Shown: positions 7,596 through 30,596, numbered from the stretch's first letter. The stretch is 64,000 nucleotides of DNA from Clostridia bacterium (GCA_045533905.1 JAZSIR010000001.1:7617-71616), one strand, 5' to 3'. The notes: generated by a model from the letters alone, not told the origin. Program-made: numbers and translations.

Positions 7596-7599
7596 AAAT

Positions 7600-8313: not shown

Positions 8314-8327
8314 CGGAGGGGGTACTG

Positions 8328-8966: not shown

Positions 8967-8967
8967 G

Positions 8968-10059: not shown

Positions 10060-10082
10060 AATTTTCGGCAAGTGAGGTTTTT

Positions 10083-11771: not shown

Positions 11772-11804
11772 AAATAATAATAATTTAGAAAGAGGTAATT
11801 TATA

Positions 11805-12101: not shown

Positions 12102-12144
12102 GGTGAACTCCAATGAACCAAACAAGTATTGGAGGGATATACCT

Positions 12145-13995: not shown

Positions 13996-14402
13996 AAGAA
14001 CTAACCATTGCCGCAACAGTAGAAAACATTGAAACTGTAACGGACTTCGTAAACGAACAGCTTGAAGCGTTTGATTGCCCTATGAAAGCACAGATGCAGA
14101 TCGACATTGCCATCGACGAGCTTTTCGGCAACATTGCGCACTATGCGTACAATCCCGATGTAGGAGAAGCGACCGTTCGCGTGGAGGTTACCGAAGATCC
14201 TCTTGCCGTGGTAATCACCTTTATTGATAACGGCGTACCTTACGATCCTCTTGCAAAAGCCGAGCCCGACACAACGCTTTCCGCAGAGGAAAGAGACATC
14301 GGTGGTCTTGGCATCTATATGGTGAAGAAGTCTATGGACGACATTGCCTATGAATACAAAGACGGACACAACATTTTGAAAATCAAGAAGAATTTGAATT
14401 AA
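13992..14402 (+). CDS. Anti-sigma regulatory factor-type Ser/Thr kinase (RsbW/SpoIIAB-like, GHKL ATPase)
   Basis: 136 aa. N-box DELFGNIAHY, G1-like IDNGVPYDP, G2 GGLGIYMV. ATGA overlap with the phosphatase gene. Confidence 0.8.
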   Translation: MKELTIAATVENIETVTDFVNEQLEAFDCPMKAQMQIDIAIDELFGNIAHYAYNPDVGEATVRVEVTEDPLAVVITFIDNGVPYDPLAKAEPDTTLSAEERDIGGLGIYMVKKSMDDIAYEYKDGHNILKIKKNLN

Positions 14403-14415
14403 AGGATTATTGCAA

Positions 14416-16602: not shown

Positions 16603-16620
16603 ATAGCAAAATGGCACTAA

Positions 16621-16648
16621 GGAGTGAGTCGAAAGGCTCACTCCTTTT
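16621..16648 (+). terminator. Rho-independent terminator ending the 16.6-kb + strand gene array
   Basis: GGAGTGAG-tcgaaagg-CTCACTCC followed by TTTT. Confidence 0.7.
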
Positions 16649-16784
16649 ACATACCCTCATATTAAAATATGGTCCACATTAATCAAAGAAAAGGACTTTG
16701 AAAAAACTTCGTAGACTTATGTCATCTTCTGTGGTATGTTTGTGTTGCCGAAAAGGTAAATACAAATTTAGGAGATGAAATTTT

Positions 16785-17339
16785 ATGAAGAAAAAAGTAT
16801 TATGTACGGCATTGGCAGTGACTATGTTGCTAACAACAACTGCATCGGCAACTGCAAAACCTTGGTGGCTCAGTAAATACCGAGTAACTTTCGACAATGA
16901 ACTTGGAATCGTAGGAAATGTAACCTTAACCTTCGCCTCAGACGGCGGTAGCTTTATCAGGCCAATAACCAAAAGATATGGCGAGAGCATCAGTCTTGAA
17001 AGTTATGTACCAACAAAATACGGTTACACATTCAAAGGATGGTTCACAGATCCAAGAACAAAGCAAAATCAGGTAACAACATTCAAATTCACAAAGCCTG
17101 ATGTGCTTTACGCTAAGTGGCAGCCTAACCCACAGGAGCCTATAAATCCGAATGACGAAATCATAGCAAAAGATACCTGCTACCTCACGGACGAAGAAAC
17201 AAAAATACGAAATGAAATTATAGAAGAAAAGAATAAGACATACATCGAAGGCTTCGGTTATGTAGCTCCAAGTAAAACAAAAACAATCATCGTAGACTCA
17301 GGCGGTGATATAAATAAAATGGTCGGCACAATGGAATAA
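16785..17339 (+). CDS. Small secreted protein with one Listeria-Bacteroides-type repeat
   Basis: Signal-like N-terminus MKKKVLCTALAVTMLLTTTASA. Repeat signature YGYTFKGWFTDP. RBS AGGAGA. Confidence 0.6.
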   Translation: MKKKVLCTALAVTMLLTTTASATAKPWWLSKYRVTFDNELGIVGNVTLTFASDGGSFIRPITKRYGESISLESYVPTKYGYTFKGWFTDPRTKQNQVTTFKFTKPDVLYAKWQPNPQEPINPNDEIIAKDTCYLTDEETKIRNEIIEEKNKTYIEGFGYVAPSKTKTIIVDSGGDINKMVGTME

Positions 17340-17355
17340 AAAGAATAACTTAAAT

Positions 17356-17395
17356 GGCGGTATGCTCGAGATTACCTCGAACATACCGCCGTTTT
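17356..17395. terminator. Hairpin terminator between convergent genes
   Basis: GGCGGTATGcTCGAG-attac-CTCGAaCATACCGCC followed by GTTTT. Confidence 0.6.
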
Positions 17396-17400
17396 GTATC

Positions 17401-18507
17401 TTATATTTCTTTCAGTAGCCTGATGGCTTCATCAAGTGAAATTTCTCCGGACTCGCCACGATCTTTAATATCCATAGCCAATGTACTCTGTTCAAGCCAC
17501 TTGGAATAATCCAATCCGCTTGATTTTCGCTTAGCCAATCGATCGTAAGTTCTGTCATATTCTTTTTTTATTGGAGACCTGAATTCATCTGAGTTTTCTT
17601 TTTTGTGAGCACCTACCTTGCTGCATGTCCTGCCTTTCGGATCGTTAGGAGCCACTCTGTTGCAATAGTGGGTATCATGACCTGTTGGCAAAAGAAAAAA
17701 ACGTTTGCAATTATGACATCTTTTCGGTGAGTGTTTAACATTTAATCCTCTGAACAGGTCTGAATTTAAAAAGCCGCCAATAGACCTGAAAATGACTCTT
17801 TCTGCCAATATATAATTTTCTTTGCAATCAGGATCAGGACAAGTGACATATTCAATATTTGCCGGCATTTCTGCTTTAAATGTAATTGCAGGATATTTCG
17901 GGATAAGAGATTCAAGATTTTGCTGTAATTCGCTATTATTCAGAAACTGATATATTGCGTGTGCAAAATGTGCAGGGGTTCTTGCAGTAACATTTTCTAT
18001 ATATAAATCAACAAATGCAGATGCATATATTTTAAAAATCAGTATTTCATCATTGATTGATAACAAGCCTACTAAAATTCTGTTTAATATGCTTCTGCTC
18101 TCGCTTTTGGGATGGGTTTCATATATTTCCCTGAACTCCGATATATATCTTCTTTTATCAAATTCAAAGCGGTCATATAAAGGCAGGCTAAGGATAACAT
18201 CTAATGCCTTGCTTAGATATGGAGCAAAGCCATCAAAACTGCATGATGATATAATCATTAAATTTGATTCGTATTCCCCATATAGTTTTTCTAGAAACGC
18301 TTTCCTTAAATTTGATAATACTGTTTTCAAATTATCAAGCTGTTCGTCAGATAGCTCCAGAATTTCAGTTGAAATCTGACCAAGCGAGACCTTTTCTTTT
18401 CCGATAATGACATAATCTTTATAAAATTGTGCCGTTATATATCCAAAATCAAATGGTTTTTCATCTAAACTTTTTATACTTGCCATATACTCACTTCCAC
18501 GATACAT
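17401..18507 (-). CDS. Hypothetical protein with a C-terminal Cys/His cluster, next to the recombinase module
   Basis: 368-aa ORF; an alternative start MASIKSL is at 18486. Cluster CPDPDC...RCHNCKRFFLLPTGHDTHYCNRV...RTCSKVGAHKK suggests zinc binding. I cannot assign a family with confidence. Confidence 0.5.
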   Translation of the reverse strand: MYRGSEYMASIKSLDEKPFDFGYITAQFYKDYVIIGKEKVSLGQISTEILELSDEQLDNLKTVLSNLRKAFLEKLYGEYESNLMIISSCSFDGFAPYLSKALDVILSLPLYDRFEFDKRRYISEFREIYETHPKSESRSILNRILVGLLSINDEILIFKIYASAFVDLYIENVTARTPAHFAHAIYQFLNNSELQQNLESLIPKYPAITFKAEMPANIEYVTCPDPDCKENYILAERVIFRSIGGFLNSDLFRGLNVKHSPKRCHNCKRFFLLPTGHDTHYCNRVAPNDPKGRTCSKVGAHKKENSDEFRSPIKKEYDRTYDRLAKRKSSGLDYSKWLEQSTLAMDIKDRGESGEISLDEAIRLLKEI

Positions 18508-18549
18508 ATTTTATAATTCCACTACTTTTGAAAATGGCGGCAAAATCGA

Positions 18550-18578
18550 TTGACGCACATCTTGCGATATGTTAGAAT
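18550..18578 (+). promoter_or_regulatory. Sigma-A-type promoter upstream of the recombinase operon
   Basis: TTGACG, 17 nt, TAGAAT, with an extended-10 TGn (tgtTAGAAT). Confidence 0.55.
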
Positions 18579-18794
18579 AGCCACACAACAAATTATACAC
18601 GATACAAATAAAAATGTCAATCGTGGAAATTGAACCTTGAAAACTTAATAGCCGAACCGCAAGGGATACATTCTCGGGGAAGTGTCGCCACGATATGAGC
18701 GCACCAAGAGATGAAAATACGATGTCGGTGTCAAACAAGGCAGGAGGTCAGGAACTGTAGCGGAAGTCGGTGCTAAAATAATTATATGAAGGGA

Positions 18795-18959
18795 ATGATG
18801 TTTATGAAATCTATGAATATAGAGATAGAAAAGGCTGTTGCCAAGGCTATGATTTTAAACCTGTTAAAAGCAAACCTTATAAGCGATGAGGAAGCAAACA
18901 AGCTGATAGATAAAGCCTTTGATGCATTAAGCGAGCCTTTAATAGAAAACTCAGCATAA
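18795..18959 (+). CDS. Small hypothetical ORF (51-54 codons) preceding the recombinases
   Basis: Below the track cutoff. ATG codons at 18795, 18798 and 18804. Peptide MKSMNIEIEKAVAKAMILNLLKANLISDEEANKLIDKAFDALSEPLIENSA, predicted helical. Confidence 0.35.
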   Translation: MMFMKSMNIEIEKAVAKAMILNLLKANLISDEEANKLIDKAFDALSEPLIENSA

Positions 18960-19051
18960 TCTTTTAGTTTTTGTTTAATATTTGTCTGGATATATTAAGT
19001 TATTTGTGGTATTGTTGTCTTGAAAAAAATATGGAAAGGAGTGTGAGGCTG

Positions 19052-20593
19052 ATGTCAGAAGTAATTGTTATCCAAGGAAATCATACAAAAAACGAACCTG
19101 TGTTAAAGCGAGTATCCGCTTATGCCAGAGTAAGCTCTGCTTCAGACGAACAGCAATACTCCTTCCATAATCAGGTTCAGCACTTTACAAGCTTGATACA
19201 GGGAAATCCCGATTGGAAATATGTAGACATATATGCCGATGAAGGTGTAACCGGCACAAGAGAGGACAAACGCAGTGAATTCAACCGAATGATAAGAGAT
19301 GCCGAGGATGGACTGATGGACATTATCATTACAAAATCAGTCTCACGCTTCGGCAGAAATGTTTCAGAGTGCCTAAGAACAGTAAAACATCTCAAGGATA
19401 TTGGAGTTACCGTGATATTCGAAGAGGAAGGTCTTGATTCGGGAAAGCCTGCTGACTTTACAATGATATCTGTAAAAGCAGCAATGGCAGAACAGGAATC
19501 AATCTCTACTGCTGAGAACGGCAGAATGGCAAACCGCCAGAGAATGAAGATGGGTACATTTGTTCAAAGCAATCCTCCAATCGGTTATACATTAAACGGC
19601 ACGGAATTCGAGGTTAACGAGGAACAAGCCGATGTTATCAAACGAATATTTGCCGAATACCTGTCAGGAAGTGGTACAAGCAAAATTGCCGATGGGCTTA
19701 TGAAAGATAAAATTCCCAATAAGTATGGCAAGGTGCATTGGACACCGCAAAGTGTCAGCTATATCATAAATAACCCAAGATACAAAGGCGGTGCCCTGTT
19801 CCAGAAATCCTTTAAGACAGGATTTCCGTATAAGAAAAAGAAGAACACAGGCGAACTGCCGATGTATTATGCAGAGGATGCCAATATCCCCATAGTAAGT
19901 GCAGAAGACTTTGACAAAGCAGCCGAGCTTATGCAGACAAGGCGTGAAAAGCATGCCCAGGAAAACAACGAGAATGCAAGTATCTTTGCAAAGAAGATAT
20001 ATTGCAGGCACTGCGGTTCCACTTATCGATATAAAAATGGTACAGATACATGGGTATGCAGAACACACGATAAAGGCACAGACAAATGTCAGGCAATGCC
20101 TGTAAGCGAAGAAATGCTTAAAAAGGCATTTGTTCAAATGTATAATAAGCTGAAAGCAAATTATGAGCATATCCTTCTCCCGTTCTTAACACAGGTAGAG
20201 GCTATGAAGATAAACAAGGCAGAGCAAGATAGAATTGCTGATATCAACATGCAAATAGCACAGAATACAGAGCAGGTTTTATCGCTCCGAAGACTAAAGA
20301 GTCAGGAGCTGATAGAGCCTGCTTTCTATATTCAGGAGCTTAACCGCTTTGATAAGCAAACAATGGAACTTCGGAAAAAGAAAAATGCCATACTGCACAA
20401 CAACCGATATGATGACATTATCTCAAAGACCAGAAAAATCATAAGAGAAATGGAATCGGCTTGTGCAATAGGCAAATTCGATGCTGATAGCTTCAAAAAT
20501 CTTGTAAGCAGAATTGAAGCAGATAATGAAATAATAACCTTTATCCTCATAAACGGAATGGGGCTTGAGGTTAGCAAAAAGGAGGTGTTATAA
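19052..20593 (+). CDS. Large serine recombinase 1
   Basis: Start MSEVIVIQ follows AAAGGAG; the track ORF is extended upstream. Catalytic motif AYARVSSASDEQ, SVSRFGRN, recombinase domain, zinc ribbon CRHCGS...CRTHDKGTDKC, coiled-coil C-terminus. Confidence 0.9.
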   Translation: MSEVIVIQGNHTKNEPVLKRVSAYARVSSASDEQQYSFHNQVQHFTSLIQGNPDWKYVDIYADEGVTGTREDKRSEFNRMIRDAEDGLMDIIITKSVSRFGRNVSECLRTVKHLKDIGVTVIFEEEGLDSGKPADFTMISVKAAMAEQESISTAENGRMANRQRMKMGTFVQSNPPIGYTLNGTEFEVNEEQADVIKRIFAEYLSGSGTSKIADGLMKDKIPNKYGKVHWTPQSVSYIINNPRYKGGALFQKSFKTGFPYKKKKNTGELPMYYAEDANIPIVSAEDFDKAAELMQTRREKHAQENNENASIFAKKIYCRHCGSTYRYKNGTDTWVCRTHDKGTDKCQAMPVSEEMLKKAFVQMYNKLKANYEHILLPFLTQVEAMKINKAEQDRIADINMQIAQNTEQVLSLRRLKSQELIEPAFYIQELNRFDKQTMELRKKKNAILHNNRYDDIISKTRKIIREMESACAIGKFDADSFKNLVSRIEADNEIITFILINGMGLEVSKKEVL

Positions 20594-21457
20594 ATGGCAA
20601 ACCGTTACCTTGCATTCGGCTACAAAATAGCTGACGGCAAACTTTGTGTTGAAGAAACTGAGGCAGAACTTGTAAAGGCGACCTTTACACTGTATGCGGC
20701 AGGAAAATCCTACAGCCAAATTGCTGAAAGATTTACCTTAAGCGGAATCAGATACAACATTGATTTTGACAAATGGAATAAAAATATGGTAAAGCGGATA
20801 ATTGAAAACGATAAATATATCGGCAGGAACGGTTATCCGCAAATCATAGAAGAAAAGCTCTATAACAAGGCGAACAAGACAAGAATTTCAAAAGTCATAA
20901 ATAAACCGCCTGAAAAAGCAGAGCTTGACAACTTCCTTCGGTCTCATTCGGAATGCCCGGTTTGCAGCTCCCCGATAAAAAGGCAGAATCAATGCTACGG
21001 CGAGAATAGGTCTGTGGCATATAAATGTACCAATTCTGTATGCCCGGCGAAATCTGTTAAAGAGAATCGACTTGTAAATCTCATAACGGAATTGCTTAAC
21101 GAAATTGCAAATGATTTAAGTCTTGCAGATGAACCTGTTATAACCGCAATTCCCGATGATGAACTGACAGACGATATGGCAAACGATATCTACATAAAAA
21201 TGCTGACGGAATACGATAAGGATGAAGTGCTTGCAGACATATATGAGCTTGCAAAATTCAAATTCCGAAACAGTATCAAAACAGATATGAGTGCAGTTAC
21301 AGAAAGAATAAAAAAAGAGCTTTGCAAGTATGGGATACTTACAGAGCCTCATCTTCCGCTTATGCAGAAAATTATATCAAAATTCTATGTAGGCGGTCAG
21401 GAAGAGCTTTCTATACTGCTTACCAATGGAAAATTAATAACAAGGAGTGTGAATTAA
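20594..21457 (+). CDS. Serine-recombinase-family protein lacking the catalytic resolvase domain (recombinase domain plus zinc ribbon only)
   Basis: Starts one nt after the stop of recombinase 1. Begins at the recombinase-domain block LAFGYKIADGKLCVEETEAELVKATFTLYAAGKSYSQIAERF. Zinc ribbon CPVCSS...YKCTNSVCPAK. No YxRVS nucleophile motif. Confidence 0.75.
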   Translation: MANRYLAFGYKIADGKLCVEETEAELVKATFTLYAAGKSYSQIAERFTLSGIRYNIDFDKWNKNMVKRIIENDKYIGRNGYPQIIEEKLYNKANKTRISKVINKPPEKAELDNFLRSHSECPVCSSPIKRQNQCYGENRSVAYKCTNSVCPAKSVKENRLVNLITELLNEIANDLSLADEPVITAIPDDELTDDMANDIYIKMLTEYDKDEVLADIYELAKFKFRNSIKTDMSAVTERIKKELCKYGILTEPHLPLMQKIISKFYVGGQEELSILLTNGKLITRSVN

Positions 21458-21459
21458 AG

Positions 21460-23064
21460 ATGGCAAATGTAATCGAAATACCTGCAACAAAATCATATTT
21501 CGGGCATAGTGCAAAGCGAGTCCTGAATGTGGGTGCTTATGCGAGAGTCAGCACCGAGGCGGAGCAACAAGCAAAAAGCTTTGAAACTCAGGTTGAACAC
21601 TATACCAAACTGATCAAAGAAACTACCGGTTGGAAATTTGTAGATGTATATGGCGATGAAGGTATCAGCGGAACCTCTATATACAACCGACCAGAGTTTC
21701 AGAGAATGATGAATGATTGCAGAAAAGGCAGGCTGGACTTAATAATAATTAAATCAGTATCAAGATTCGGCAGAAATTCCGCCGAGAGCTTACAATGTAT
21801 CAGAGAACTTAAGGATTTAGGTGTCGGAGTAATATTTGAAAAGGAAGGTATCAATACCCTCAACTATACGACCGAGATGTTCATTGCACTGCATACCATA
21901 TTCGCTCAATCCGAAAGTGAGTCGATGAGTGAAAATATAAAAATGGGCAGAAGTTACAGATACCGTGAGGGTAAGTGCTGCTATAACTTTAACGGAGTAT
22001 ACGGCTTCAGTCAGGACGATGAAAAAAACATATCAGTGGAAATCGGCAAAGCAATCAATGTCAGGTTCATCTTCGACTGCTTCATAAAAGGTATGAGCAT
22101 AGAACAAATTGTCAATGCACTTGCCGAAAGAGAAATCCCCTCTCCGAGAGGTAAAGAAAGATGGTCGCCCGGCTCAGTGGAAAGAATACTTAAGAATGAA
22201 AAATATGCAGGTGATGTTCTGACCTCAAAGACATTAACTCTTGATCCAATCTCAAAGAAAAAGGTAAAGAACACAGGTCAGGCTCCGCAGTATTATATCA
22301 GAGACCATCATCCGCCAATCGTAGAACGAGAACTGTTCGACAGTGTACAAGAGGAAATTAGCCGACGTGGATGTATCAAAAAGTTTGATAAAAAACAAAG
22401 CTATGGAAAATACAGCGGGAAATTTCCTTACAATGACTTAATATTCTGTGGTGAGTGCGGTGCCAAATACAGACGAACAGAATGGAAAACCCGTAGCGGT
22501 GATAAGAAATATGTGTGGCGATGCCTGAACAGAATTCAGAACGGACAAGATTGCTGTAAGAATTCTCCTTCCATCAACAATAACTTTATGAATGAGGTTA
22601 CGCTCGAAGCTATCAATGCGATATACACAAGTAGAAAAAGAGTAAAGGACATATTAAAAAGCTCAATCGCCTCTCTACTCGGGGATACCGAACAGCCAAA
22701 GATAAGTGCAAATATGGAAAAGCTTAATCTAATGAGCGACAGAATGCGTGAGGCTATATACCAAAATGCTAACGGTGAAATATCAACGGACGAGCTTGAC
22801 AGAATATGTCTGGAAGTAAAGATGGAATCGCAAAGACTGCGTCAAGAGAATAAGGAATATGAGATGGAGAGAAAGATGAAATCAACCGAGTCATCTAAGC
22901 TGAAGCTTATCTTCAAAGCCATTGATGGTATGGAAGATAAGGTGAGCGAGATTGATACACCTCTCATTCGAAGCATCATCGAAAGATACGAGGTTGTGTC
23001 AAAGAAAAAGATGATCATATGGTTCATCGGCGACATACCTTATGAGGTTGACCTACCGAAATAA
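21460..23064 (+). CDS. Large serine recombinase 2 (third gene of the trio)
   Basis: Start MANVIEIP follows AGGAG. Catalytic AYARVSTEAEQQ, SVSRFGRN, zinc ribbon CGECGAKY...WRCLNRIQNGQDCC, coiled-coil tail. Confidence 0.9.
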   Translation: MANVIEIPATKSYFGHSAKRVLNVGAYARVSTEAEQQAKSFETQVEHYTKLIKETTGWKFVDVYGDEGISGTSIYNRPEFQRMMNDCRKGRLDLIIIKSVSRFGRNSAESLQCIRELKDLGVGVIFEKEGINTLNYTTEMFIALHTIFAQSESESMSENIKMGRSYRYREGKCCYNFNGVYGFSQDDEKNISVEIGKAINVRFIFDCFIKGMSIEQIVNALAEREIPSPRGKERWSPGSVERILKNEKYAGDVLTSKTLTLDPISKKKVKNTGQAPQYYIRDHHPPIVERELFDSVQEEISRRGCIKKFDKKQSYGKYSGKFPYNDLIFCGECGAKYRRTEWKTRSGDKKYVWRCLNRIQNGQDCCKNSPSINNNFMNEVTLEAINAIYTSRKRVKDILKSSIASLLGDTEQPKISANMEKLNLMSDRMREAIYQNANGEISTDELDRICLEVKMESQRLRQENKEYEMERKMKSTESSKLKLIFKAIDGMEDKVSEIDTPLIRSIIERYEVVSKKKMIIWFIGDIPYEVDLPK

Positions 23065-23101
23065 CGGCAGGTCCTTTTTACAAGAAATTTTCAAAAAGGC
23101 C

Positions 23102-23130
23102 TTGTAAAAAATATAGTTTTATGGTAGAAT
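23102..23130 (+). promoter_or_regulatory. Outward-facing promoter-like element downstream of the recombinases
   Basis: TTGTAA, 17 nt, TAGAAT, with TGn (tggTAGAAT). It overlaps an inverted repeat, so it may instead be part of a terminator or att structure. Confidence 0.3.
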
Positions 23131-23246
23131 AAATCTTGTAAAAGAGATTTATTCTGCCTTTGGAATTGATAAGGGTAAAACCTTGAAACCCGCTTGAAAT
23201 CAAGCAAAAATTAATGTGGCAGTAAAATCATATCGTTCTTACACGT

Positions 23247-23275
23247 CGGAGCAAAGTACGCTTTGCTCCGTTTTT
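23247..23275 (+). terminator. Rho-independent terminator
   Basis: CGGAGCAAAG-tacg-CTTTGCTCCG followed by TTTTT. Confidence 0.65.
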
Positions 23276-23437
23276 CTTTTATAAGAAAAACATTCGCCTA
23301 CTTCCTCTCCCCTCCTTTTCGCAAAAGGTCACGTTCAAGTCGGCTATTCGCTTGTAAACGCGCTCATAACGCCTTTTTTCACTACCAACCTTTTGCGAGT
23401 GTGCCTTCGGCACGATCTGTATTGTTATGTATAAAAA

Positions 23438-23467
23438 GGGCAGATTTTATAGAAATCTGCCCTTTTT
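23438..23467 (-). terminator. Bidirectional hairpin terminator directly after the stop at 23469
   Basis: AAAAA-GGGCAGATTT-tatag-AAATCTGCCC-TTTTT. Confidence 0.65.
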
Positions 23468-23507
23468 CTTATTTTTCTATTTGCTTTTTCACAAGGCTTT
23501 CGTCCCA
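23461..23507. repeat. Direct repeat copy A: imperfect duplicate of the acyl-CoA synthetase 3' end (candidate att/integration-site sequence)
   Basis: On the minus strand, GAAAGCCTTGTGAAAAAGCAAATAGAAAAATAAgaaaaagg compares with copy B GAAAGCCTCGTAAAAAAGCAAATCGAGAAATAAgaaaagg. There are 4 substitutions, all synonymous, and 1 indel. Confidence 0.8.
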
Positions 23508-26500
23508 TCCATATTCTTTAATATATGTATCTGCCTCTTTTAGGGCCTTTTTGTCTGTGTAGGCATCATACGAGAAGATACCGTCCTCGACCATTTTCTC
23601 AATCGTCGGTAGCGCTTCGTCAGGGGTTGCCTTGGCTTCAAGGATTGTGCGAACGGTCTGCGATACTTTCTTGTTTTTTCCTGTTTTCTGAGGCACTTGT
23701 ATGTCTCTGTGCGGTTTTTCTCCGCTTGGGATTGCGCCGTACCTTTCTATAAGCTCGTTGTAAAGTTCAGTACTTACGTGCCCTTTCTCTACATACTTTG
23801 CCAACTTGCGTTTGGCGGCCTCGTCCCCTTTTTGCAAGCCTTGAATGGTGGCAACATATTCCCTCTCCGAGAGCATGCCTTTGAGAGAAAAATCACTCTT
23901 GACTTTTTGTTCGGGATGTGCTACACTCTTGTTAAGGTCAGCACTTGTGTGCCCTGCCTCAGCATCTGTATTGATGCTTGCAGGGAAAGTGTTGGCCGTT
24001 TCTTTTTCCCAAACCCTGTGCACCCAGAATTTGTTTTTCTGCGGTGATTTTTTAATATCTAGGCGGATGGTAACGTCTTTTCCGTCGACCTCCAGCGTAT
24101 GCTCGATGTACGCAAATTTTTTATTATCGCTGTTTCCGTATTGGTTTTGAACATTATCAGCAACAAGACGTCCTTTCTCGATGATTTCTGGTAATCTCCT
24201 TATCGTAGCAAGCTTTGTAATTTTCTTATTCTTACCGAGACGTGCATAATTTTTCAAATTAAATGTCTCGTCGATTCCGCTTTTATTTGTTTCAATAATC
24301 ATACCGGAATCTTCGTTGACGTCTACTCTTTTTCGCTTCTCGGTATCTGTAAAAAAGTTTTCCCCGAGAAGAGTTTTTAGCACTTGTCTTTGCACGTGAA
24401 TGTAATCCCCAGGCGCGTCAATCCCAAAACTTTCAAAGGTGCTTTTAACAAACTCGTCCGAATAGTTGCTCTCACGCCTCGCGGGGACGCTTTCAACCGC
24501 TTTTATATAGTCGGAGTCTTTGAGAGAAAAATCACTCTTGACAATTTTTTGGGGGTGTGATATATTATCCCTAGAGTAGTTCTCTTTAACGTCTTGGACG
24601 TACGCCTTGCGGATTTCATGCAAATCAGCGAGATATTGAGAACTACTCTGTTTTTTATGTATAGCATCAATCAAGCCATACAGGTTTGGAATACTATCTA
24701 TCCCCGTTTTTACCATTTGCTTGTTAATAAGAAGTTTTTCTCTGTTATATTCCGTTGTTATTGCTTCGACATAATAAATCACATCACCCGGCATTACTTT
24801 TACATAAATCAAACCCGGATCACCATTTGCGTTTGTTTTGTAAAATACTTTATCGTAATTTTCAACAATATACGGAATTAGCTCAACATCTGCTTCGGTA
24901 ACAGGGTATTTTTCATTTGTTTTTTTGCCGTGGGAGTTCTTGATATGCCGAATATCATTATCGCGCAACGCATGAGAATAACCCGATATATCCACATCAG
25001 AAGATACTTCATTTATCAAATCCCTTCCAACCTTTAGGAATTTAATGTAAGATTTTTCATTATCGTTTAGATAGGCTTTTTCTATGTACCGGTTGATGTC
25101 AGATTGCGTAACCTCAAAATCAAACACTTTATCCGCATATCCTAATGTCTTCAAGGAAAAGTCCACACCGCCCTCTGGAGCGGTGTTCTTTTGTCCGTCT
25201 ATTCTCTTGAGTGAATAGCTCTTTTCTTCCGATTCTCTGAAGAGATTTTCGAGGACATTTCTAAAAGCTCGGCTTCCGTTGCGTTGGGATTGTCTCGGCA
25301 AAACTCCAACATTTTGATTGTGTCTTCCGCCTCCCAGGTTTCGAAGATTATTTTGACTACTGTTGACATTTTGCAACCAACTTCCTTGAGATACCCTTTG
25401 AGCAAAACTTGGTTTTCCGTTAATACCCTTGCCATCTTCTTCGTCCTCCAATAAATCAATTAAAATATCTAATTCAAAGCTTCCGTCATCGCCTTTTCTT
25501 TCGTAGAGGATTGTAGGATGTTCTGGGGTTTCCGTGCTGTATATGGCAAACAAAGCTTCTCCGTCAATTCTGCCTTTATACCAACATCCAACCGTATCTG
25601 CGATTCTTTTAGGTTCGTGATTCTCAACCTGCCGAATCCAGTCTTCCAGCATTTTGAACTGCGTTGCGTTCAAATCTGTGCGCCATTTTAACGAATAGCT
25701 TGTATTTCCATTATACTCCGCTCCCATGTTTTTTTCAAGAGTATCGGAGGAATTCTCTTTTTTGAGAGAAATTTCATTCTTGACAGAATTTGAATTTTGT
25801 GGTATATTGTCATTAGAAACACTATCCCGTGTAGCCTGTCTTTCGGCAGGCAATCTGGTCATTCTTTCGAGAAGACCAATCTCGGCGGTAGTGTTTTCTT
25901 CAATCCCAACAATATCGTATAGGTATTTGTTGCCATCAGAAGCATTCCTAATCAACAGCTCGACATCAAAAGCTCGTACCTTTGTTATCTTTCCTCGATT
26001 ATCTTTTATCGGGAAAGCAAAGGAATTAGCATAACGATACATACCATACTTCGCATCCTTATTATGTGTGTGCTGCGTCTTTTCCCACCTGCGATTCGTA
26101 GCTGTTTCTATCAATTCTCCAAAGCCGTCAACAGCTTTATTTTTACCTCTTGCGGCGGTGCGATTAACCCTACGGAGAAAAGTGGTGTACTTCGAATGCG
26201 TGTACTCTTGCGGCAAATCCTCGCCAATGTAGACCTTCTGCCCACTTTCTATAATCGTATAAACTTCGCCTATATGTTGTGCAATGTAGCCTGCAACAGC
26301 TTGATGGCTGTTTAATTGCTTGTTGGTCAGTCCACTTTCTTCAATCCATACAAAGCTCTTGCCATCAACATTTTTCAAGCTAAAGTCTACGCCGTCCTCT
26401 GTGTCGGTGTTTTTTTGTGCCTCTGCGGTCTGTTTAGTATGAGCCTTTGCTTCCACCGCCTTTTTGTTTTCCACAGCCTTTGCGACAGCAGTCTCAAACA

Positions 26501-27566
26501 TATCGCGAAGACTTGTGATTTCGTCAAGCTTTGGCTGAATCTTTGCTTTTTCTTTGGCGCTCTTGCCTGCAAGAAAATCACGAATTTTCCTAATCATCTC
26601 GGCAAGATACTCAATGTACTTCCGCAAGCCTTGCTTTGCCTTTTCGTCCGTGCCGTTGATGATGCTGTCAATAGCCTTATGGAATCGCGCCTCATCGTTG
26701 CCGTAAAGGTAGAGAATGTTGTTTGCAGAAACTTCTTCCATTGCCTTTGCAAGAGATATTTCCTCGCCCTGTGCGGCGTATGCACTTCGTTTTTGGTCTG
26801 CAACGGTAAATATAGACGGCTCATTGCCGGCAATGTGATTATACATCGCATACACAAACGCGCTGCCTTCTTCAGGGGCAAGGTCGACAACTCTATGCAG
26901 CGCTATTTCGTGCGCCGCATGGAAGACAATAGATACCTTCTGCCCGCCCACTTCTCTTTCAAAATCGAAGTCAATAGGCACTTCCCCCGTTTGCCTGTTG
27001 TACTCGGCGTTGCCTTTTAGGCCCTTTGCCATATACGCCTTTACGCCAAGTCCTTCTGCTAAAAGATTGAGCGTTGCAACCTCGCTTTGTTTAACATCGC
27101 TCGGCAGGTTTTCCGCAAGAACGCCGCTTTCCATATTTACAACTGCATTTCTAAACCTTTCTTTGGCGGCGAGGTCTTCCATTTTTCTGTCCATCTGCCC
27201 TGCCGTGAACGCATCTTCTTGTGCTTTGGATATAAATACGTCCTTGCCTTTTTTAACATTCAAGTCCGGTTGCTTAAAGCCTGTCATGTACGATGCCTTG
27301 ACCTCTTCCAGCACTTTGTTAAAGGTTGCCCCGTCTGCATTCGAATAATTGGCCACAAGTTTCGCCCCTTCCTCGCCAAACCCCGTGACCTTTCTTACCT
27401 CGTCGGCGGTTATCTCCACGCCGTTCTCGGTGAGGACATCTAGTGTTTCGCTGCTTACGATTCCTCTTCTGCGGTTTTCAAGAAGGGTGTAACCGTCTAC
27501 TCGATTTTTTCTACCGCGCCCATTGCCTTCCTTATACGCAAAAAGGCTGTGAAACCTAGGTTTCAC
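23469..27566 (-). CDS. Polyvalent protein of conjugative-element or phage type, apparently 5'-truncated. Its last 10 codons are supplied by repeat copy A.
   Basis: 1365-aa ORF made of modules separated by recurring (D)FSLK linkers, six in total. Nuclease-like motif SHALRDNDIRHIKNSHG. No credible RBS or ATG at the 5' end: a GTG inside a palindrome, 9 nt after the upstream stop. Confidence 0.6.
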   Translation of the reverse strand: MKPRFHSLFAYKEGNGRGRKNRVDGYTLLENRRRGIVSSETLDVLTENGVEITADEVRKVTGFGEEGAKLVANYSNADGATFNKVLEEVKASYMTGFKQPDLNVKKGKDVFISKAQEDAFTAGQMDRKMEDLAAKERFRNAVVNMESGVLAENLPSDVKQSEVATLNLLAEGLGVKAYMAKGLKGNAEYNRQTGEVPIDFDFEREVGGQKVSIVFHAAHEIALHRVVDLAPEEGSAFVYAMYNHIAGNEPSIFTVADQKRSAYAAQGEEISLAKAMEEVSANNILYLYGNDEARFHKAIDSIINGTDEKAKQGLRKYIEYLAEMIRKIRDFLAGKSAKEKAKIQPKLDEITSLRDMFETAVAKAVENKKAVEAKAHTKQTAEAQKNTDTEDGVDFSLKNVDGKSFVWIEESGLTNKQLNSHQAVAGYIAQHIGEVYTIIESGQKVYIGEDLPQEYTHSKYTTFLRRVNRTAARGKNKAVDGFGELIETATNRRWEKTQHTHNKDAKYGMYRYANSFAFPIKDNRGKITKVRAFDVELLIRNASDGNKYLYDIVGIEENTTAEIGLLERMTRLPAERQATRDSVSNDNIPQNSNSVKNEISLKKENSSDTLEKNMGAEYNGNTSYSLKWRTDLNATQFKMLEDWIRQVENHEPKRIADTVGCWYKGRIDGEALFAIYSTETPEHPTILYERKGDDGSFELDILIDLLEDEEDGKGINGKPSFAQRVSQGSWLQNVNSSQNNLRNLGGGRHNQNVGVLPRQSQRNGSRAFRNVLENLFRESEEKSYSLKRIDGQKNTAPEGGVDFSLKTLGYADKVFDFEVTQSDINRYIEKAYLNDNEKSYIKFLKVGRDLINEVSSDVDISGYSHALRDNDIRHIKNSHGKKTNEKYPVTEADVELIPYIVENYDKVFYKTNANGDPGLIYVKVMPGDVIYYVEAITTEYNREKLLINKQMVKTGIDSIPNLYGLIDAIHKKQSSSQYLADLHEIRKAYVQDVKENYSRDNISHPQKIVKSDFSLKDSDYIKAVESVPARRESNYSDEFVKSTFESFGIDAPGDYIHVQRQVLKTLLGENFFTDTEKRKRVDVNEDSGMIIETNKSGIDETFNLKNYARLGKNKKITKLATIRRLPEIIEKGRLVADNVQNQYGNSDNKKFAYIEHTLEVDGKDVTIRLDIKKSPQKNKFWVHRVWEKETANTFPASINTDAEAGHTSADLNKSVAHPEQKVKSDFSLKGMLSEREYVATIQGLQKGDEAAKRKLAKYVEKGHVSTELYNELIERYGAIPSGEKPHRDIQVPQKTGKNKKVSQTVRTILEAKATPDEALPTIEKMVEDGIFSYDAYTDKKALKEADTYIKEYGWDESLVKKQIEK
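27549..27566. repeat. Perfect 18-bp palindrome at the island/chromosome junction (terminator stem or recombination core)
   Basis: GTGAAACCTAGGTTTCAC lies 9 nt downstream of the synthetase stop. On the minus strand it is followed by AGCCTTTTT. Confidence 0.8.
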
Positions 27567-27568
27567 AT

Positions 27569-27614
27569 CCTTTTCTTATTTCTCGATTTGCTTTTTTACG
27601 AGGCTTTCGCCGCA
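27569..27614. repeat. Direct repeat copy B (native 3' end of the acyl-CoA synthetase gene)
   Basis: See copy A. Copy B uses the GC-richer synonymous codons (CTC, GTA, ATC, GAG). Confidence 0.8.
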
Positions 27615-29204
27615 GTATTTTTCGCGGAGTTTCGGTTTTTCGATTTTGCCGGTGGGGTTGCGCGGTACATCGGCGAAGATGATGCGGCGCGGTCTTTTAT
27701 ATCGTGGAAGTGCCTGACAAAACGCTTCGATATCTGCTTCCGTGCAGGTGCTGCCGGGCTGCAGTTCGATAATGGCCGCGGCAATCTCGCCGAGTCTGTC
27801 ATCCGGAAGGCCGATAACGCCCACGTCCTTAATCTCGCGGTTTGTGCGGAGAAAATCTTCAATCTGCACAGGGTAGAGGTTTTCGCCGCCTGTGATGATA
27901 ACGTCTTTTTTGCGGTCTACGAGGAAAATGAAGCCATCCGCATCTTCCATGGCCATATCGCCTGTGTAGAGCCAGCCGTCGTGCAGTACCGCATTTGTGG
28001 CCACCTCATCGCGATAATAGCATTTCATAACGCCGGGGCCTTTTACTGCAAGTTCCCCCACTTCGCCACGAGAAACGGTGCTTCCGTTTTCGTCAATAAT
28101 CTTCGTTTCCCAAAGATGACCGGCAATACCGATGGCGCCCACCTTATGTATATTCTCTACGCCAAGATGTACACAGCCGGGGCCGATAGATTCGGAAAGC
28201 CCGTAATTGGTATCATATGCGTGATTCGGGAAACGCTCACGCCAGCGCTTTATAAGGCTCGGCGGTACCGGCTGTGCGCCGATATGCATGAGCCGCCAAG
28301 AAGCAAGGTCATATTCTTCTATATTGACATCGCCGCGGTCAATCGCATCGAGAATATCCTGCGCCCACGGCACGAGAAGCCATACGATAGATGCCTTTTC
28401 CTCGGAAGCGGCTTTTAAAATCCACTCCGGCTTTACGCCGCGAAGAAGCACTGCTTTGCCGCCGACCAGAAAGCTTCCGAACCAATGCATCTTCGCGCCG
28501 GTATGATACAGCGGCGGAATGCAGAGGAACACATCGTCCTTCGTTTGCCCGTGGTGTTTATTTTCCGTAATGCACGAGGATATGAGGCTTCTGTGTGCAT
28601 GCAAAATAGCCTTGGGGAAGCCTGTGGTGCCGGAAGAAAAGTAGATGGCCGCATCGTCCTCTTCCGAAAGCGGTGCATCCGTAAAGTCTGCACACATTTC
28701 GGGGAGGCGCCCGTTATAATCTACGGCAAAATCGGGTGTATCCTCACCCACAAAGATATATTGTTTCACGCCGGGCATATCGCCCTTGGCCGCGGTTACG
28801 CGTTCTGTAAACTCAGGGCCAAAGATCAAAACATCCACCTCAGCAAGACCCGAGCAATAGGAAATTTCATCTGCTGCATAGCGGAAATTCATAGGCACGG
28901 CCAGTGCGCCCGTTTTGAGAATACCAAAATAGATGGGAAGCCACTCGAGGCAGTTCATAAGAAGGATTGCAACCTTATCCCCCTTCTTGATGCCAAGCGC
29001 TGTGAGCATATTGGCAAAGCGGCAGGCGCTTTCGTCAAACTCGCGCCATGTGATTTCGCGGCGCCCTGCATTTTTTGCGGCCGCTTCCACTAGCTCAAAA
29101 TCGCGCCAAGCCTGCTTTTCACGCACCTCGGGGCTGATTTCTACAAGCGCCGCACAGCTACCGTACTTCCTTGCATTTTCTCTTAAAACCTCAGTAATAA
29201 CCAT
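27576..29204 (-). CDS. AMP-dependent acyl-CoA synthetase/ligase
   Basis: AMP-binding motif YFSSGTTGFPKAILHAH, plus YGLSE, YTGD and PTGKIEKPKLRE. Start MVITEVL at 29204 follows GGAAGGA; the track ORF starts 8 codons earlier. Confidence 0.85.
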   Translation of the reverse strand: MVITEVLRENARKYGSCAALVEISPEVREKQAWRDFELVEAAAKNAGRREITWREFDESACRFANMLTALGIKKGDKVAILLMNCLEWLPIYFGILKTGALAVPMNFRYAADEISYCSGLAEVDVLIFGPEFTERVTAAKGDMPGVKQYIFVGEDTPDFAVDYNGRLPEMCADFTDAPLSEEDDAAIYFSSGTTGFPKAILHAHRSLISSCITENKHHGQTKDDVFLCIPPLYHTGAKMHWFGSFLVGGKAVLLRGVKPEWILKAASEEKASIVWLLVPWAQDILDAIDRGDVNIEEYDLASWRLMHIGAQPVPPSLIKRWRERFPNHAYDTNYGLSESIGPGCVHLGVENIHKVGAIGIAGHLWETKIIDENGSTVSRGEVGELAVKGPGVMKCYYRDEVATNAVLHDGWLYTGDMAMEDADGFIFLVDRKKDVIITGGENLYPVQIEDFLRTNREIKDVGVIGLPDDRLGEIAAAIIELQPGSTCTEADIEAFCQALPRYKRPRRIIFADVPRNPTGKIEKPKLREKYCGESLVKKQIEK

Positions 29205-29348
29205 GTATACCGTCCTTCCGTACTGCATAATGTACTATTTATACAGTATACCGCAAAAAAAGGAGTTTGTAAATACCCAAAATTTCTTTTCGCATACTTT
29301 TTCTGTTTGTGCACAAGATAAGAAAAGTATATAAAAAGGAGAACCCCA

Positions 29349-30596
29349 ATGTCTCTCATCCGCATCCGTCCCACGGGGCCGCTTTCGGGCACTGTGCGCA
29401 TTGCCGGTGCCAAAAATGCGGCGCTCCCTATCCTTGCCGCAACGCTTTTAGCCTCTTCCCCCTGCACGCTCTATGAAATCCCGCCGCTCTCCGATGTGTA
29501 CAATATGCTGGAAATTATCAAAAAACTCGGCGCGGTATGTTTGCCTTCTTCAAAAGGGCTTCACATTGACACGCGCGGCGTGCAAAACCTCGAAGCCGCC
29601 TACACGGATACAAGCCGCCTTCGTGCCTCTTTTCTCATTGCGGGGCCGCTTCTTGCCAAGTACGGCCGCTTCAAAATTGCGCTTCCCGGCGGCTGTAAAA
29701 TCGGCACGCGCCCTATCGACCTCCATCTGAAAGGCTTTGCCGCGATGGGCGCGCAGCTTACACATACACACGGCTATATAGAAGCAGAAGCTGCCCGGCT
29801 TCGGGGCGCAAATATATATCTGGACTTCCCGAGTGTTGGGGCAACGGAAAACATCATGCTGGCCGCGTGCCTCGCTGACGGGCAGACCGTAATTGAAAAC
29901 GCGGCAGTGGAGCCGGAAATCACCGACCTTGCAACCTTTCTGTCCCGTATGGGTGCAGAGGTGCGCGGTGCCGGCACGGATACTGTCAAGATATGGGGAA
30001 AGCCTTCTCTGCACGCCGCCGAGCACACCATCATTCCCGACAGGATTGAGGCCGGCACCTTTATGGTGGCCGCGGCCATTACGGGAGGGCGGGTGGAACT
30101 TCGAAACATTGTGCCCGAGCATATAAAGCCGCTTTCGGCAAAGCTTCGTGAAATGGGCGTGCGGATTACGGAAAGTGAGACCTCCGCCCTTATAGAGGCC
30201 GGTGCGGAGCTTATACCCACCGATATCAAAACGCTTCCCTTCCCCGGTTTCCCCACGGACATGCAGTCCCAGCTTTGTGCGCTTATGAGTGTGGCGCAGG
30301 GCACGGGCATTATCACGGAAACGGTTTTTGAAAATCGTTTCATGCACGTAAACGAGCTTCGGCGTATGGGCGCCGACATTACTATTGAAGGGCGCGCCGC
30401 CATCGTGAAAGGAAGGGCGCATCTTATGGGTACGCGCGTGGCCGCCCCAGACCTTCGTGCCGGTGCGGCGCTTGTGCTTGCGGGCCTTGTGGCCGACGGC
30501 GAAACAGAAATCGAAGGTGCAGAATATATTGCGCGGGGGTACGCGCATTTCCCTGAGAAGCTCCGTGCGCTTGGAGCAGATATGCAGGCAAGATAA
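29349..30596 (+). CDS. murA: UDP-N-acetylglucosamine 1-carboxyvinyltransferase
   Basis: 415 aa. GAKNAALPILAATLLA and active-site Cys context LPGGCKIGTRPIDLHL. Confidence 0.92.
   Translation: MSLIRIRPTGPLSGTVRIAGAKNAALPILAATLLASSPCTLYEIPPLSDVYNMLEIIKKLGAVCLPSSKGLHIDTRGVQNLEAAYTDTSRLRASFLIAGPLLAKYGRFKIALPGGCKIGTRPIDLHLKGFAAMGAQLTHTHGYIEAEAARLRGANIYLDFPSVGATENIMLAACLADGQTVIENAAVEPEITDLATFLSRMGAEVRGAGTDTVKIWGKPSLHAAEHTIIPDRIEAGTFMVAAAITGGRVELRNIVPEHIKPLSAKLREMGVRITESETSALIEAGAELIPTDIKTLPFPGFPTDMQSQLCALMSVAQGTGIITETVFENRFMHVNELRRMGADITIEGRAAIVKGRAHLMGTRVAAPDLRAGAALVLAGLVADGETEIEGAEYIARGYAHFPEKLRALGADMQAR

What the first reader, a model, noticed from the sequence alone, without database searches (positions are those of the whole stretch)
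23461..27614. Two copies of the acyl-CoA synthetase 3' end bracket a 4.1-kb cassette (SCC-like composite island)
On the minus strand the synthetase ends GGC GAA AGC CTC GTA AAA AAG CAA ATC GAG AAA TAA gaaaagg (copy B, 27569-27614). A second copy, 4.1 kb downstream, reads GAC GAA AGC CTT GTG AAA AAG CAA ATA GAA AAA TAA gaaaaagg (copy A, 23461-23507). All four substitutions inside ESLVKKQIEK* are synonymous, and each copy is followed by its own hairpin terminator. Copy A lies about 400 bp from the end of the recombinase trio. The segment between the copies is one truncated mobile-element ORF that borrows its last 10 codons and stop from copy A. The layout mirrors staphylococcal SCC composite islands. 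In those, an LSR pair targets the 3' end of a conserved gene, the gene end is restored, and tandem elements or pseudo-elements are separated by repeated integration-site sequences. A system of this kind targeting an acyl-CoA synthetase in a Clostridia-type genome does not match anything I know.
Basis: partly seen in the sequence, partly recalled or inferred. Interest (0 to 1): 0.7.

Follow-up and report, generated by a model that had tools for sequence, protein, structure and literature searches.

The report
Prophage remnant beside a recombinase transposon
The duplicated gene end is real and brackets a 4-kb leftover of a phage-like integrated element, but the three-recombinase cluster next to it is a separate small transposon-like element with its own ends, so this is ordinary mobile-DNA debris and not a new SCC-like system.

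Summary
The last 11 codons, the stop and 7-8 further bases of the acyl-CoA synthetase occur twice on the minus strand: copy B at 27569-27611 and copy A at 23461-23504. There are four synonymous differences, and each copy has its own hairpin. Between the copies lies one ORF, a phage-type polyvalent protein (LPD3, PBECR3). It is cut off at its 3' end exactly where copy A begins. The SCC-like reading does not hold. Comparison with 15 contigs that carry 83-97% identical recombinases places the ends of the recombinase element (E) at about 16650 and 23243. E is 6.6 kb, has a 2-bp CA at both junctions, and sits in at least ten different right-hand contexts. Its end is 218 bp from copy A. It abuts a tRNA-terminator region that is native to the DNA downstream of the synthetase in relatives. 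Four close relatives have empty synthetase ends. I read the 4.06-kb segment (R) as a decayed integrated prophage-type element flanked by att-derived imperfect repeats, with its integrase lost. E is an unrelated multi-targeting serine-recombinase element that inserted next door. The DNA left of E differs in composition from the DNA to the right, so the contig may be chimeric across E. Interest is low.

The parts
27576..29228 (-). Acyl-CoA synthetase (AMP-binding). It is intact and ends in copy B.
   Evidence: Pfam AMP-binding plus AMP-binding_C. It is 82-86% identical to homologues in L001-L003 and L093, which share the C-terminus CGESLVKKQ(I/T)EK*.
27569..27611 (-). Copy B of the repeat: the last 11 codons, the stop and 7 nt of the synthetase. 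This is the attL-like junction.
   Evidence: Its variable codons are mildly host-like (log2 host/insert 1.55).
27548..27567 (-). Hairpin B, the terminator now serving the synthetase. It was probably brought in by the inserted element.
   Evidence: 8-bp stem plus T run. It is unrelated to hairpin A and to the terminators of relatives.
23505..27568 (-). Insert R (4.06 kb): hairpin B, a short leader and one polyvalent-protein ORF (called as 23469-27566). The ORF is 3'-truncated, and its start region carries a frameshift.
   Evidence: Pfam LPD3 and PBECR3. Homologues P0002, P0004 and P0008 run on past ...GW. Full-length homologues lie beside holin and amidase genes at prophage ends. R is absent from L001-L003 and L093. 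GC is 41-48% against 49-53% in the host. A 4-nt gap relative to L081 lies near 27500.
23461..23504 (-). Copy A of the repeat: the displaced synthetase 3' end, read in frame by the truncated ORF. This is the attR-like junction.
   Evidence: The junction with polyvalent-gene sequence falls directly after TGG. Natural homologues read GGCTGGACACAAAGCCTCACA at that point.
23433..23467 (.). Hairpin A, a 16-bp bidirectional terminator-like stem after copy A. It is the likely original terminator of the synthetase.
   Evidence: Its position relative to the tRNA-side flank matches the synthetase-to-tRNA spacing in relatives.
23244..23432 (+). Host flank of E: a tRNA-type terminator hairpin (23247-23270) followed by a conserved structured motif of about 150 nt.
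   Evidence: It is homologous to L082 11058-11246, which starts at the base after tRNA-Asp, and to the right flank of E in L090. The hairpin stem is identical to the tRNA-Arg terminator downstream of the synthetase in L003. RNAalifold gives 18 of 47 pairs with compensatory changes. There is no Rfam hit.
16650..23243 (+). Element E (6.6 kb), a separate serine-recombinase element. Its genes are a Flg_new protein (16785-17339), DUF6076 (17401-18507, minus strand), a 51-aa ORF (18804-18959), LSR1 (19052-20593), a catalytic-domain-less Recombinase protein (20594-21457) and LSR3 (21460-23064).
   Evidence: Pfam. Homology to L083-L092 and L097-L101 stops exactly at 23243, and homology to L097 starts at 16645. 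CA is present at both junctions. A subterminal inverted 10-mer, CCACATTAAT / ATTAATGTGG, was read.

Best explanation
Two unrelated mobile elements sit side by side in the short spacer between the synthetase and a convergent tRNA gene.

(1) R (23505-27568) is the decayed remnant of a temperate-phage-type integrative element. I infer that it integrated by site-specific recombination into the last ~40 bp of the synthetase gene. Its attachment site carried a near-copy of that gene end. Integration therefore left the synthetase with a complete reading frame and a new terminator (copy B plus hairpin B). The original end and terminator were displaced 4 kb downstream (copy A plus hairpin A). Later deletions removed the integrase and nearly everything else. 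One deletion joined the middle of the polyvalent-protein gene to the edge of copy A, at a patch of local similarity (TGG....AAAGCCTY). This created the in-frame borrowed tail. R is now immobile.

(2) E (16650-23243) is a 6.6-kb element with two large serine recombinases and an accessory recombinase-domain protein. It inserts at many sites with a 2-bp CA crossover. [quoted passage not shown] It plays no part in the 44-bp duplication.

Shown: the repeat, the truncation, the empty sites in relatives, the ends of E and its multiple contexts.

Inferred: the integrase type (probably tyrosine), the order of events, and which copy is native.
For: - **Repeat:** it is real and not due to chance.
- **Origin of both copies:** both encode the native C-terminus seen in relatives.
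- **Hairpins:** they are unrelated to each other, so the two copies have different origins and are not a fill-in duplication.
- **Empty sites:** L093 (86% identical synthetase) and L001-L003 have stop plus terminator and no insert. In three of them (L093, L002, L003) tRNA-Arg lies 110-515 bp away, and in L002 and L003 it is convergent.
- **Native flank beyond copy A:** the sequence beyond copy A and hairpin A is a tRNA-downstream region in the same relative orientation. Its terminator stem is identical to that of L003 tRNA-Arg. It starts at the base that follows the CCA of tRNA-Asp in L082.
- **R is foreign and phage-like:** it carries LPD3 and PBECR3 and has lower GC. Full-length homologues are the last large gene next to holin and amidase at prophage ends.
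- **Truncation:** homologues continue past GW, and the local similarity at the junction is visible in L094 and L082.
- **E is separate:** its right end at 23243 is fixed by 15 contigs, and its left end at about 16650 is fixed by L097. It has CA at both junctions, at least ten different right flanks and three different left flanks.
- **Literature:** elements with triple serine integrases give 2-8 bp repeats. Integration at 3' ends of housekeeping genes is described as typical of tyrosine integrases, and ICE repeats in general span 2-60 bp (PMC4701971). Multi-targeting LSR clades are known (PMC10083194).
Against: - **No intact relative of R:** none was found with an integrase and an attP carrying the synthetase mimic. 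Pattern scans of viral and metagenome contigs found nothing.
- **No recurrence:** no other synthetase locus shows such an insertion.
- **Two deletions needed:** the model requires two deletions, and one of them ends exactly at the repeat edge.
- **Native copy unresolved:** codon evidence is weak.
- **Single assembly:** the host species is represented by one assembly only, so the junctions lack independent confirmation.
- **Missing tRNA:** the tRNA expected left of E is not in the window.
- **Composition break:** the DNA left of E differs in composition from the DNA to the right. Part of the contig may be misjoined or rearranged.
Confidence: 0.55

Rival explanations
1. Captured-fragment origin. 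Copy A is not an att product. It is a piece of a synthetase gene from an earlier, related host. Illegitimate recombination fused it to the polyvalent gene (as in aberrant excision of a prophage, specialised-transduction style). It was then carried here together with its own terminator. The insert would then sit just after hairpin B, and both copy B and hairpin B would be native.
For: The junction at copy A lies at a patch of local similarity between polyvalent genes and the synthetase end. The synonymous-only differences are what two real alleles from related lineages would show; copy A matches L001 at three of the four variable sites. Copy B is mildly host-like in codon choice, and copy A has the host-rare ATA codon. 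No element with an attP mimic was found.
Against: It needs an extra explanation for why the carried fragment landed exactly beside the homologous gene end. The sequence directly beyond copy A and hairpin A looks like the native tRNA-side neighbourhood of this synthetase in relatives. That fits copy A being in its original place.
Confidence: 0.2
2. Large composite island. Everything left of 27568 (at least 27.5 kb of about 41% GC DNA, including R, copy A, the motif, E and the metabolic genes) is one or more elements accreted at the synthetase end. Copy A would be an internal att relic, and a further copy would lie beyond the left edge of the window.
For: The GC break lies at copy B, not at E: 41-43% to the left and 49-53% to the right. 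The tetranucleotide signature of 1-16650 differs from that of 27569-64000. Other copies of E live in 33-41% GC surroundings.
Against: The content of 1-16600 is ordinary chromosomal metabolism with no mobility genes. The flank between E and copy A matches the native tRNA neighbourhood of the synthetase in relatives. There is no third copy within 23 kb. E is a repeat found in many contexts and could equally cause a chimeric join.
Confidence: 0.12
3. SCC-like system. The two LSRs recognise the synthetase 3' end, and R and E are tandem elements separated by repeated integration-site sequences.
For: The geometry is suggestive. The recombinases lie about 400 bp from copy A, and a recombinase-less cassette is bounded by the repeats.
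Against: E ends at 23243, with 218 bp of host-type sequence before copy A. The E junctions are CA dinucleotides with no similarity to the repeat. E relatives sit in at least ten other contexts, none of them a synthetase. A 44-bp repeat is unlike serine-recombinase products. No recombinase lies between the copies.
Confidence: 0.04
4. The duplication or one of its junctions is an assembly artefact of a metagenome-assembled contig.
For: Only one assembly of this species exists. The contig shows a composition break and lacks the tRNA expected at E, which suggests at least one misjoin.
Against: The two copies share at most 11 identical bases in a row, and nothing else at the R junctions is repeated, so no k-mer path could create them. 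The likely misjoin is inside E, not at 23505 or 27568.
Confidence: 0.06

Closest known systems
Integrated prophages and ICEs that target the 3' end of a protein-coding gene, and their decayed derivatives (dICE and CIME-type remnants)
   Same: Imperfect direct repeats within the 2-60 bp range flank the insert. The target gene keeps a complete 3' end. The insert is foreign, is absent from relatives and has lost its recombination genes (general description in PMC4701971).
   Different: No integrase or intact relative was found, so the recombinase class is unknown. Only one truncated gene survives. An acyl-CoA synthetase as target was not seen in any of 81 other loci.
Staphylococcal SCC / SCCmec composite islands (CcrAB, 3' end of rlmH/orfX)
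   Same: A repeat derived from a gene 3' end bounds a recombinase-less segment, and large serine recombinase genes lie nearby. (The SCC features are from my own knowledge.)
   Different: The recombinases are not inside a repeat-bounded unit. Their element has separate ends with a CA junction 218 bp away. The repeat is 43-44 bp with mismatches rather than a short conserved core. The recombinase element is promiscuous in its targets.
Elements with multiple serine integrases (streptococcal ICEs with integrase triplets) and multi-targeting or transposase-like LSRs (TndX/TnpX type)
   Same: For E: tandem serine recombinase genes at one end of the element, a tiny junction repeat, and many different insertion contexts (PMC4701971; PMC10083194).
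   Different: E is only 6.6 kb with no conjugation genes. Its middle gene lacks the catalytic domain yet is conserved at 287 aa. No DUF4368 was detected. It carries DUF6076 and a Flg_new protein. There is no DNA match in the plasmid collection and only short 70% matches in phage records.
Polyvalent proteins of phages and conjugative elements (LPD and PBECR domain families)
   Same: The ORF in R has LPD3 and PBECR3 modules separated by repeated ..SDFSLK.. linkers. Its full-length homologues are 2100-2400-aa proteins beside lysis genes.
   Different: This copy is a stand-alone 1365-aa fragment with a borrowed C-terminus and a damaged start. Similar orphan fragments occur at other loci in related genomes (L081, L082).

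Membership tests
SCC-type element (Ccr-mediated, gene-3'-end targeting) | The serine recombinase genes lie inside the unit bounded by the integration-site repeats. | tested here: not met
   The only ORF between the copies is the polyvalent fragment. The recombinases lie outside, in an element with its own ends.
SCC-type element (Ccr-mediated, gene-3'-end targeting) | The ends of the recombinase-bearing element coincide with copies of the target-gene repeat. | tested here: not met
   E ends at 23243 and about 16650, with CA junctions. The nearest repeat copy is 218 bp away, and none lies at the left end.
SCC-type element (Ccr-mediated, gene-3'-end targeting) | The same target gene is used recurrently by related recombinases. 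| tested here: not met
   Relatives of LSR3 at 83-97% identity sit next to at least ten different flanks, none of them a synthetase. None of 81 synthetase loci has a second gene-end copy.
SCC-type element (Ccr-mediated, gene-3'-end targeting) | Excision to a circle and a restored attB. | not testable with these tools
   No reads are available. Pattern scans of public contigs found no junctions.
Remnant of a site-specifically integrated prophage or ICE | Direct repeats at both borders, one of them completing the target gene. | tested here: met
Remnant of a site-specifically integrated prophage or ICE | The insert is absent from the same site in related genomes. | tested here: met
   L093, L001, L002 and L003 have stop plus terminator only. 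These are genus-level relatives. No same-species genome exists.
Remnant of a site-specifically integrated prophage or ICE | The content is of mobile-element origin. | tested here: met
   LPD3 and PBECR3 polyvalent protein. Full-length homologues lie in holin/amidase prophage contexts.
Remnant of a site-specifically integrated prophage or ICE | An integrase (or a pseudogene of one), or an intact relative whose attP carries the repeat. | tested here: not met
   R has no integrase. No contig in the viral or metagenome collections carries the repeat. This keeps the claim at 'most likely', not 'shown'.
Multi-targeting large-serine-recombinase element (for E) | A large serine recombinase with Resolvase, Recombinase and Zn-ribbon domains. 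| tested here: met
   LSR1 and LSR3. The middle 287-aa protein has only the Recombinase domain and is conserved in all relatives.
Multi-targeting large-serine-recombinase element (for E) | Identical element ends in several unrelated flanks, with a short crossover repeat. | tested here: met
   The right end is fixed in 16 sequences with at least ten different flanks. The left end is fixed by L097. CA is present at both junctions.
Multi-targeting large-serine-recombinase element (for E) | A DUF4368 domain, common in the multi-targeting clade (PMC10083194). | tested here: not met
   It was not reported by Pfam for LSR1 or LSR3. This feature is frequent in that clade but does not define it.
Multi-targeting large-serine-recombinase element (for E) | Recombinase-dependent movement. 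| not testable with these tools
   An experiment is required.

The most novel reading that the evidence does not exclude
R is not dead debris. It would be a non-autonomous, single-gene cassette still bounded by functional att sites in the synthetase end. It could be mobilised in trans by an unidentified integrase, or by a second specificity of the neighbouring LSR pair. That would make the locus a small accretion platform for polyvalent-toxin cassettes in Oscillospiraceae-type Clostridia. The orphan polyvalent fragments with the same 5' boundary at other loci in related genomes (L081, L082) hint at independent mobility of this module.
Probability: 0.06. Interest if true: 0.55.

Novelty: new member of a known kind. 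Interest (0 to 1): 0.2.

Why it matters
This finding corrects a tempting over-reading. Recombinase genes lying close to a duplicated gene end do not make an SCC-like system. The ends of the recombinase element had to be mapped by comparison, and they fall elsewhere. What remains is a routine prophage scar plus a small promiscuous serine-recombinase element. Three by-products may be of modest use. First, E has precisely defined ends and many natural target junctions, which is useful for LSR mining. Second, the conserved catalytic-domain-less middle recombinase protein may be an accessory or directionality factor. Third, an apparently undescribed structured motif lies downstream of tRNA genes. 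The composition break across E also warns that this public contig may be chimeric.

Tried and rejected
- **Third repeat copy in the window:** none found.
- **Exact-protein look-ups** of the synthetase (both start variants), the adjacent EPSP_synthase-family (PF00275) protein and the polyvalent ORF, to find the source contig or same-species contigs: not on record.
- **Scans for the degenerate repeat** in viral and metagenome contigs: zero hits.
- **Scan for the right end of E** in metagenomes: one 1-kb contig sharing only the last 81 bp.
- **Flanking repeats around the orphan polyvalent genes** in L081 and L082: nothing convincing.
- **Rfam and tRNA search:** Rfam on 16000-30000 gave only sub-threshold noise. 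There are no tRNAs in the window.
- **PHROGs for the polyvalent ORF, DUF6076 and the Flg_new protein:** no family.
- **Polyvalent ORF against other collections:** one weak partial hit in GenBank phages and one partial hit in IMG/VR with uninformative neighbours.
- **E DNA against plasmids and phages:** no useful match.
- **E as a large island of at least 23 kb (my first idea):** rejected once the 92.7%-identical relative L097 fixed the left end at about 16650.
- **The 749-aa LPD3 protein beside E in L097 as evidence of a link between E and polyvalent genes:** rejected, because it is not significantly similar to the window ORF.
- **Fill-in target duplication or template switching as the origin of the repeat:** rejected, because the two copies carry unrelated hairpins and differ at 5 of 44 positions (four inside the ESLVKKQIEK codons plus GGC/GAC) and by a 1-nt indel, while the 1365-codon ORF is still open.
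- **Codon-usage assignment of the native copy:** only weakly informative.

Full report
**1. The observation**

On the minus strand the AMP-binding acyl-CoA synthetase (27576-29228; Pfam) ends ...TGC GGC GAA AGC CTC GTA AAA AAG CAA ATC GAG AAA TAA gaaaagg. A second copy lies 4.1 kb downstream...TGG GAC GAA AGC CTT GTG AAA AAG CAA ATA GAA AAA TAA gaaaaagg.

- A degenerate 38-nt pattern finds these two sites and nothing else in the window. It finds nothing in 100 shuffles.
- The four differences inside ESLVKKQIEK* are synonymous. The codon before them differs (Gly against Asp), and there is a 1-nt indel after the stop.
- Each copy is followed by a different hairpin: 27548-27567 and 23433-23467.
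- The closest synthetase homologues end CGESLVKKQ(I/T)EK*, so both copies are genuine synthetase ends.
- The longest identical run between the copies is 11 nt, so assembly through a repeat cannot have produced them.

**2. What lies between the copies**

One ORF lies there (23469-27566, 1365 aa), with LPD3 and PBECR3 domains. It is a polyvalent protein of the phage and conjugative-element kind.

- Homologues P0002, P0004 and P0008 align up to ...(N/Q/K)GW. They then continue (S/T)QS(L/F)T... for 80 to more than 900 residues. The window ORF switches at that point to DESLVKKQIEK*.
- The natural DNA at that point in L094 is GGCTGGACACAAAGCCTCACA. Copy B reads TGCGGCGAAAGCCTCGTA and copy A reads GGATGGGACGAAAGCCTTGTG. 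The junction therefore falls directly after TGG, in a patch of local similarity (AAAGCCTY).
- At the 5' side, homology to the N-termini of P0002 and P0003 starts about 45 bp after hairpin B. An ATG with a good ribosome-binding site is put out of frame by a 4-nt gap relative to L081. The database call uses a GTG inside the hairpin, so the gene is probably damaged.
- Full-length homologues (2379-2389 aa) sit beside holin and Amidase_3 genes. In L095 the host genes begin about 1.2 kb beyond the homologue, after a holin gene.
- Orphan fragments with the same 5' boundary stand alone among housekeeping genes in two related genomes: next to tRNA-Met in L081 and 2.6 kb from tRNA-Asp in L082.

**3. The recombinase cluster is a separate element (E)**

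The closest relatives of LSR3 are P0088 (83% identical, 10 contigs shown, L083-L092) and P0327 (a member of the cluster whose representative is 97% identical; L097-L101). All carry the same module: Flg_new protein, DUF6076, a 51-aa ORF, a 513-aa LSR, a 287-aa protein with only the Recombinase domain, and a 534-aa LSR.

- **Right end.** In every one of these contigs, DNA homology to the window stops at the same base, 23243 (...ATCGTTCTTACA|). It is followed by unrelated sequences. A further contig, L096, shares only the last 81 bp.
- **Left end.** In the 92.7%-identical L097, homology begins at 16645. The alignment places the left end at ...CTCCTTTTA|CA|TACCC.
- **Structure.** E therefore spans about 16650-23243 (6.6 kb), with CA at both junctions. 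An inverted 10-mer (CCACATTAAT / ATTAATGTGG) lies about 22-25 bp inside each end.
- **Targets.** The three left flanks differ: 5'-nucleotidase in the window, a MobL region in L097 and a glycosyltransferase cluster in L083. There are at least ten different right flanks.
- **Comparison with known elements.** This behaviour matches multi-targeting serine recombinases (PMC10083194). It also matches the 2-8 bp repeats reported for elements with triple serine integrases (PMC4701971). It does not fit a 44-bp gene-end repeat. Nothing at either end of E resembles copy A or copy B.

**4. What lies between E and copy A**

Positions 23244-23432 contain a terminator-type hairpin followed by a conserved motif of about 150 nt.

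- The same sequence follows E in L090. In L082 it starts at the base after the CCA end of tRNA-Asp (10981-11057).
- Its hairpin stem (CGGAGCAAAG...CTTTGCTCCG) is identical to the terminator of the tRNA-Arg(CCG) that lies convergently downstream of the synthetase in L003.
- L002, L003 and L093 all have tRNA-Arg 110-515 bp from the synthetase stop, with no insert between them.
- The block copy A, hairpin A, motif and tRNA terminator therefore stands where, and in the orientation in which, the native downstream region of the synthetase is expected. E has inserted at the tRNA 3' end. R has inserted into the synthetase end.

**5. Most likely history**

R is the scar of an integrative, phage-type element. 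Its attachment site mimicked the synthetase end.

- Integration produced copy B plus hairpin B, which now terminates the synthetase. It displaced copy A plus hairpin A.
- Deletions then removed the integrase and most genes. One deletion fused the polyvalent gene to the edge of copy A.
- General descriptions of ICE integration give repeats of 2-60 bp and name 3' ends of housekeeping genes as typical tyrosine-integrase targets.
- The weak points are these. No intact relative or attP mimic was found. This gene end is not used in 81 other loci. Two deletions are required. Codon usage only weakly favours copy B as host-like. I put this explanation at 0.55.

**6. Rivals**

- **Captured fragment (0.2).** Copy A is a synthetase fragment from an earlier host, fused to the polyvalent gene by aberrant recombination.
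- **Composite island (0.12).** All the low-GC DNA left of 27568 is an accreted island with a further repeat copy beyond the window. The GC break does lie at copy B.
- **SCC-like LSR system (0.04).** This is contradicted by section 3.
- **Assembly artefact at the R junctions (0.06).**

**7. A caution on the contig**

- The 16.6 kb left of E has 41-42% GC. Its tetranucleotide signature correlates 0.91 internally but only 0.66-0.80 with the 36 kb right of R. That right-hand DNA has 49-50% GC and correlates 0.89-0.94 internally.
- The tRNA expected left of E is absent.
- E is a repeat found in many contexts, so a chimeric join or a rearrangement across E is plausible.
- This does not affect copies A and B, which both lie on the right side of E.

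**8. Verdict**

The pieces belong to known kinds, and interest is low.

Noticed in passing
window 16650-23243: A compact 6.6-kb serine-recombinase element with precisely mappable ends and CA at both junctions. It was seen in at least ten different right-flank contexts in other contigs. Its middle gene (20594-21457, 287 aa) has only the Recombinase domain and no catalytic domain, yet it is conserved at the same length in all relatives. It may be an accessory or directionality factor.
   Followed up: partly
window 1-16650 versus 27569-64000: GC (41-42% against 49-50%) and tetranucleotide signature differ sharply across E and R. The tRNA expected at the left junction of E is missing. The public contig may be chimeric or rearranged across the repeat element E.
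   Followed up: partly
window 23244-23432 (+); L082 11058-11246; L090 11783-11975: A conserved structured motif of about 150 nt lies after a tRNA terminator hairpin. With three sequences, 18 of 47 predicted pairs show compensatory changes. It has a long closing stem and a terminal GCCTTCGGC hairpin. No Rfam family matches. It is possibly an undescribed small RNA or cis element downstream of tRNA genes.
   Followed up: partly
window 27490-27566 (-): The start region of the polyvalent ORF is damaged. An ATG with a good ribosome-binding site (near 27517) is out of frame by a 4-nt gap relative to the L081 homologue. The database protein starts at a GTG inside the terminator hairpin.
   Followed up: partly
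L081 6082-8745 and L082 4166-8422: Orphan 3'-truncated fragments of the same polyvalent gene family, with the same 5' boundary, stand alone among housekeeping genes in two related genomes. One abuts tRNA-Met. No flanking repeats were found. Why this module survives repeatedly is unexplained.
   Followed up: partly
window 23880-23936, 24519-24575, 25761-25817: Three 57-nt repeats lie inside the polyvalent ORF. On the coding strand they encode the ...VKSDFSLK... inter-module linkers. On the opposite strand two of them score as near-consensus sigma-70 promoters (TTGACA-17-TATATT).
   Followed up: no
window 6367-6681 and 11787-12101: Two copies, 82-85% identical, of a stretch of about 300 bp that starts with a ribosome-binding site and MTIEKNL... 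One lies upstream of the HD-CE gene and one upstream of the SpoIIE-type phosphatase. They are probably paralogous small partner-switching (STAS-like) genes. Two tandem SDF symporter paralogues lie at 3210-6365.
   Followed up: no
window 50211-50402: A 24-nt tandem repeat array (about 8 units) lies inside the overlapping ORFs at 49871-51202 (-) and 50156-51193 (+). A 2226-aa ORF follows at 51263-57943 (-).
   Followed up: no
L096 1-1011: A 1-kb metagenome contig carries only the terminal 81 bp of E (window 23163-23243). These lie next to an NlpC/P60-type gene on the other strand and are followed by a new flank. The terminal module seems to be shared by otherwise different elements.
   Followed up: partly
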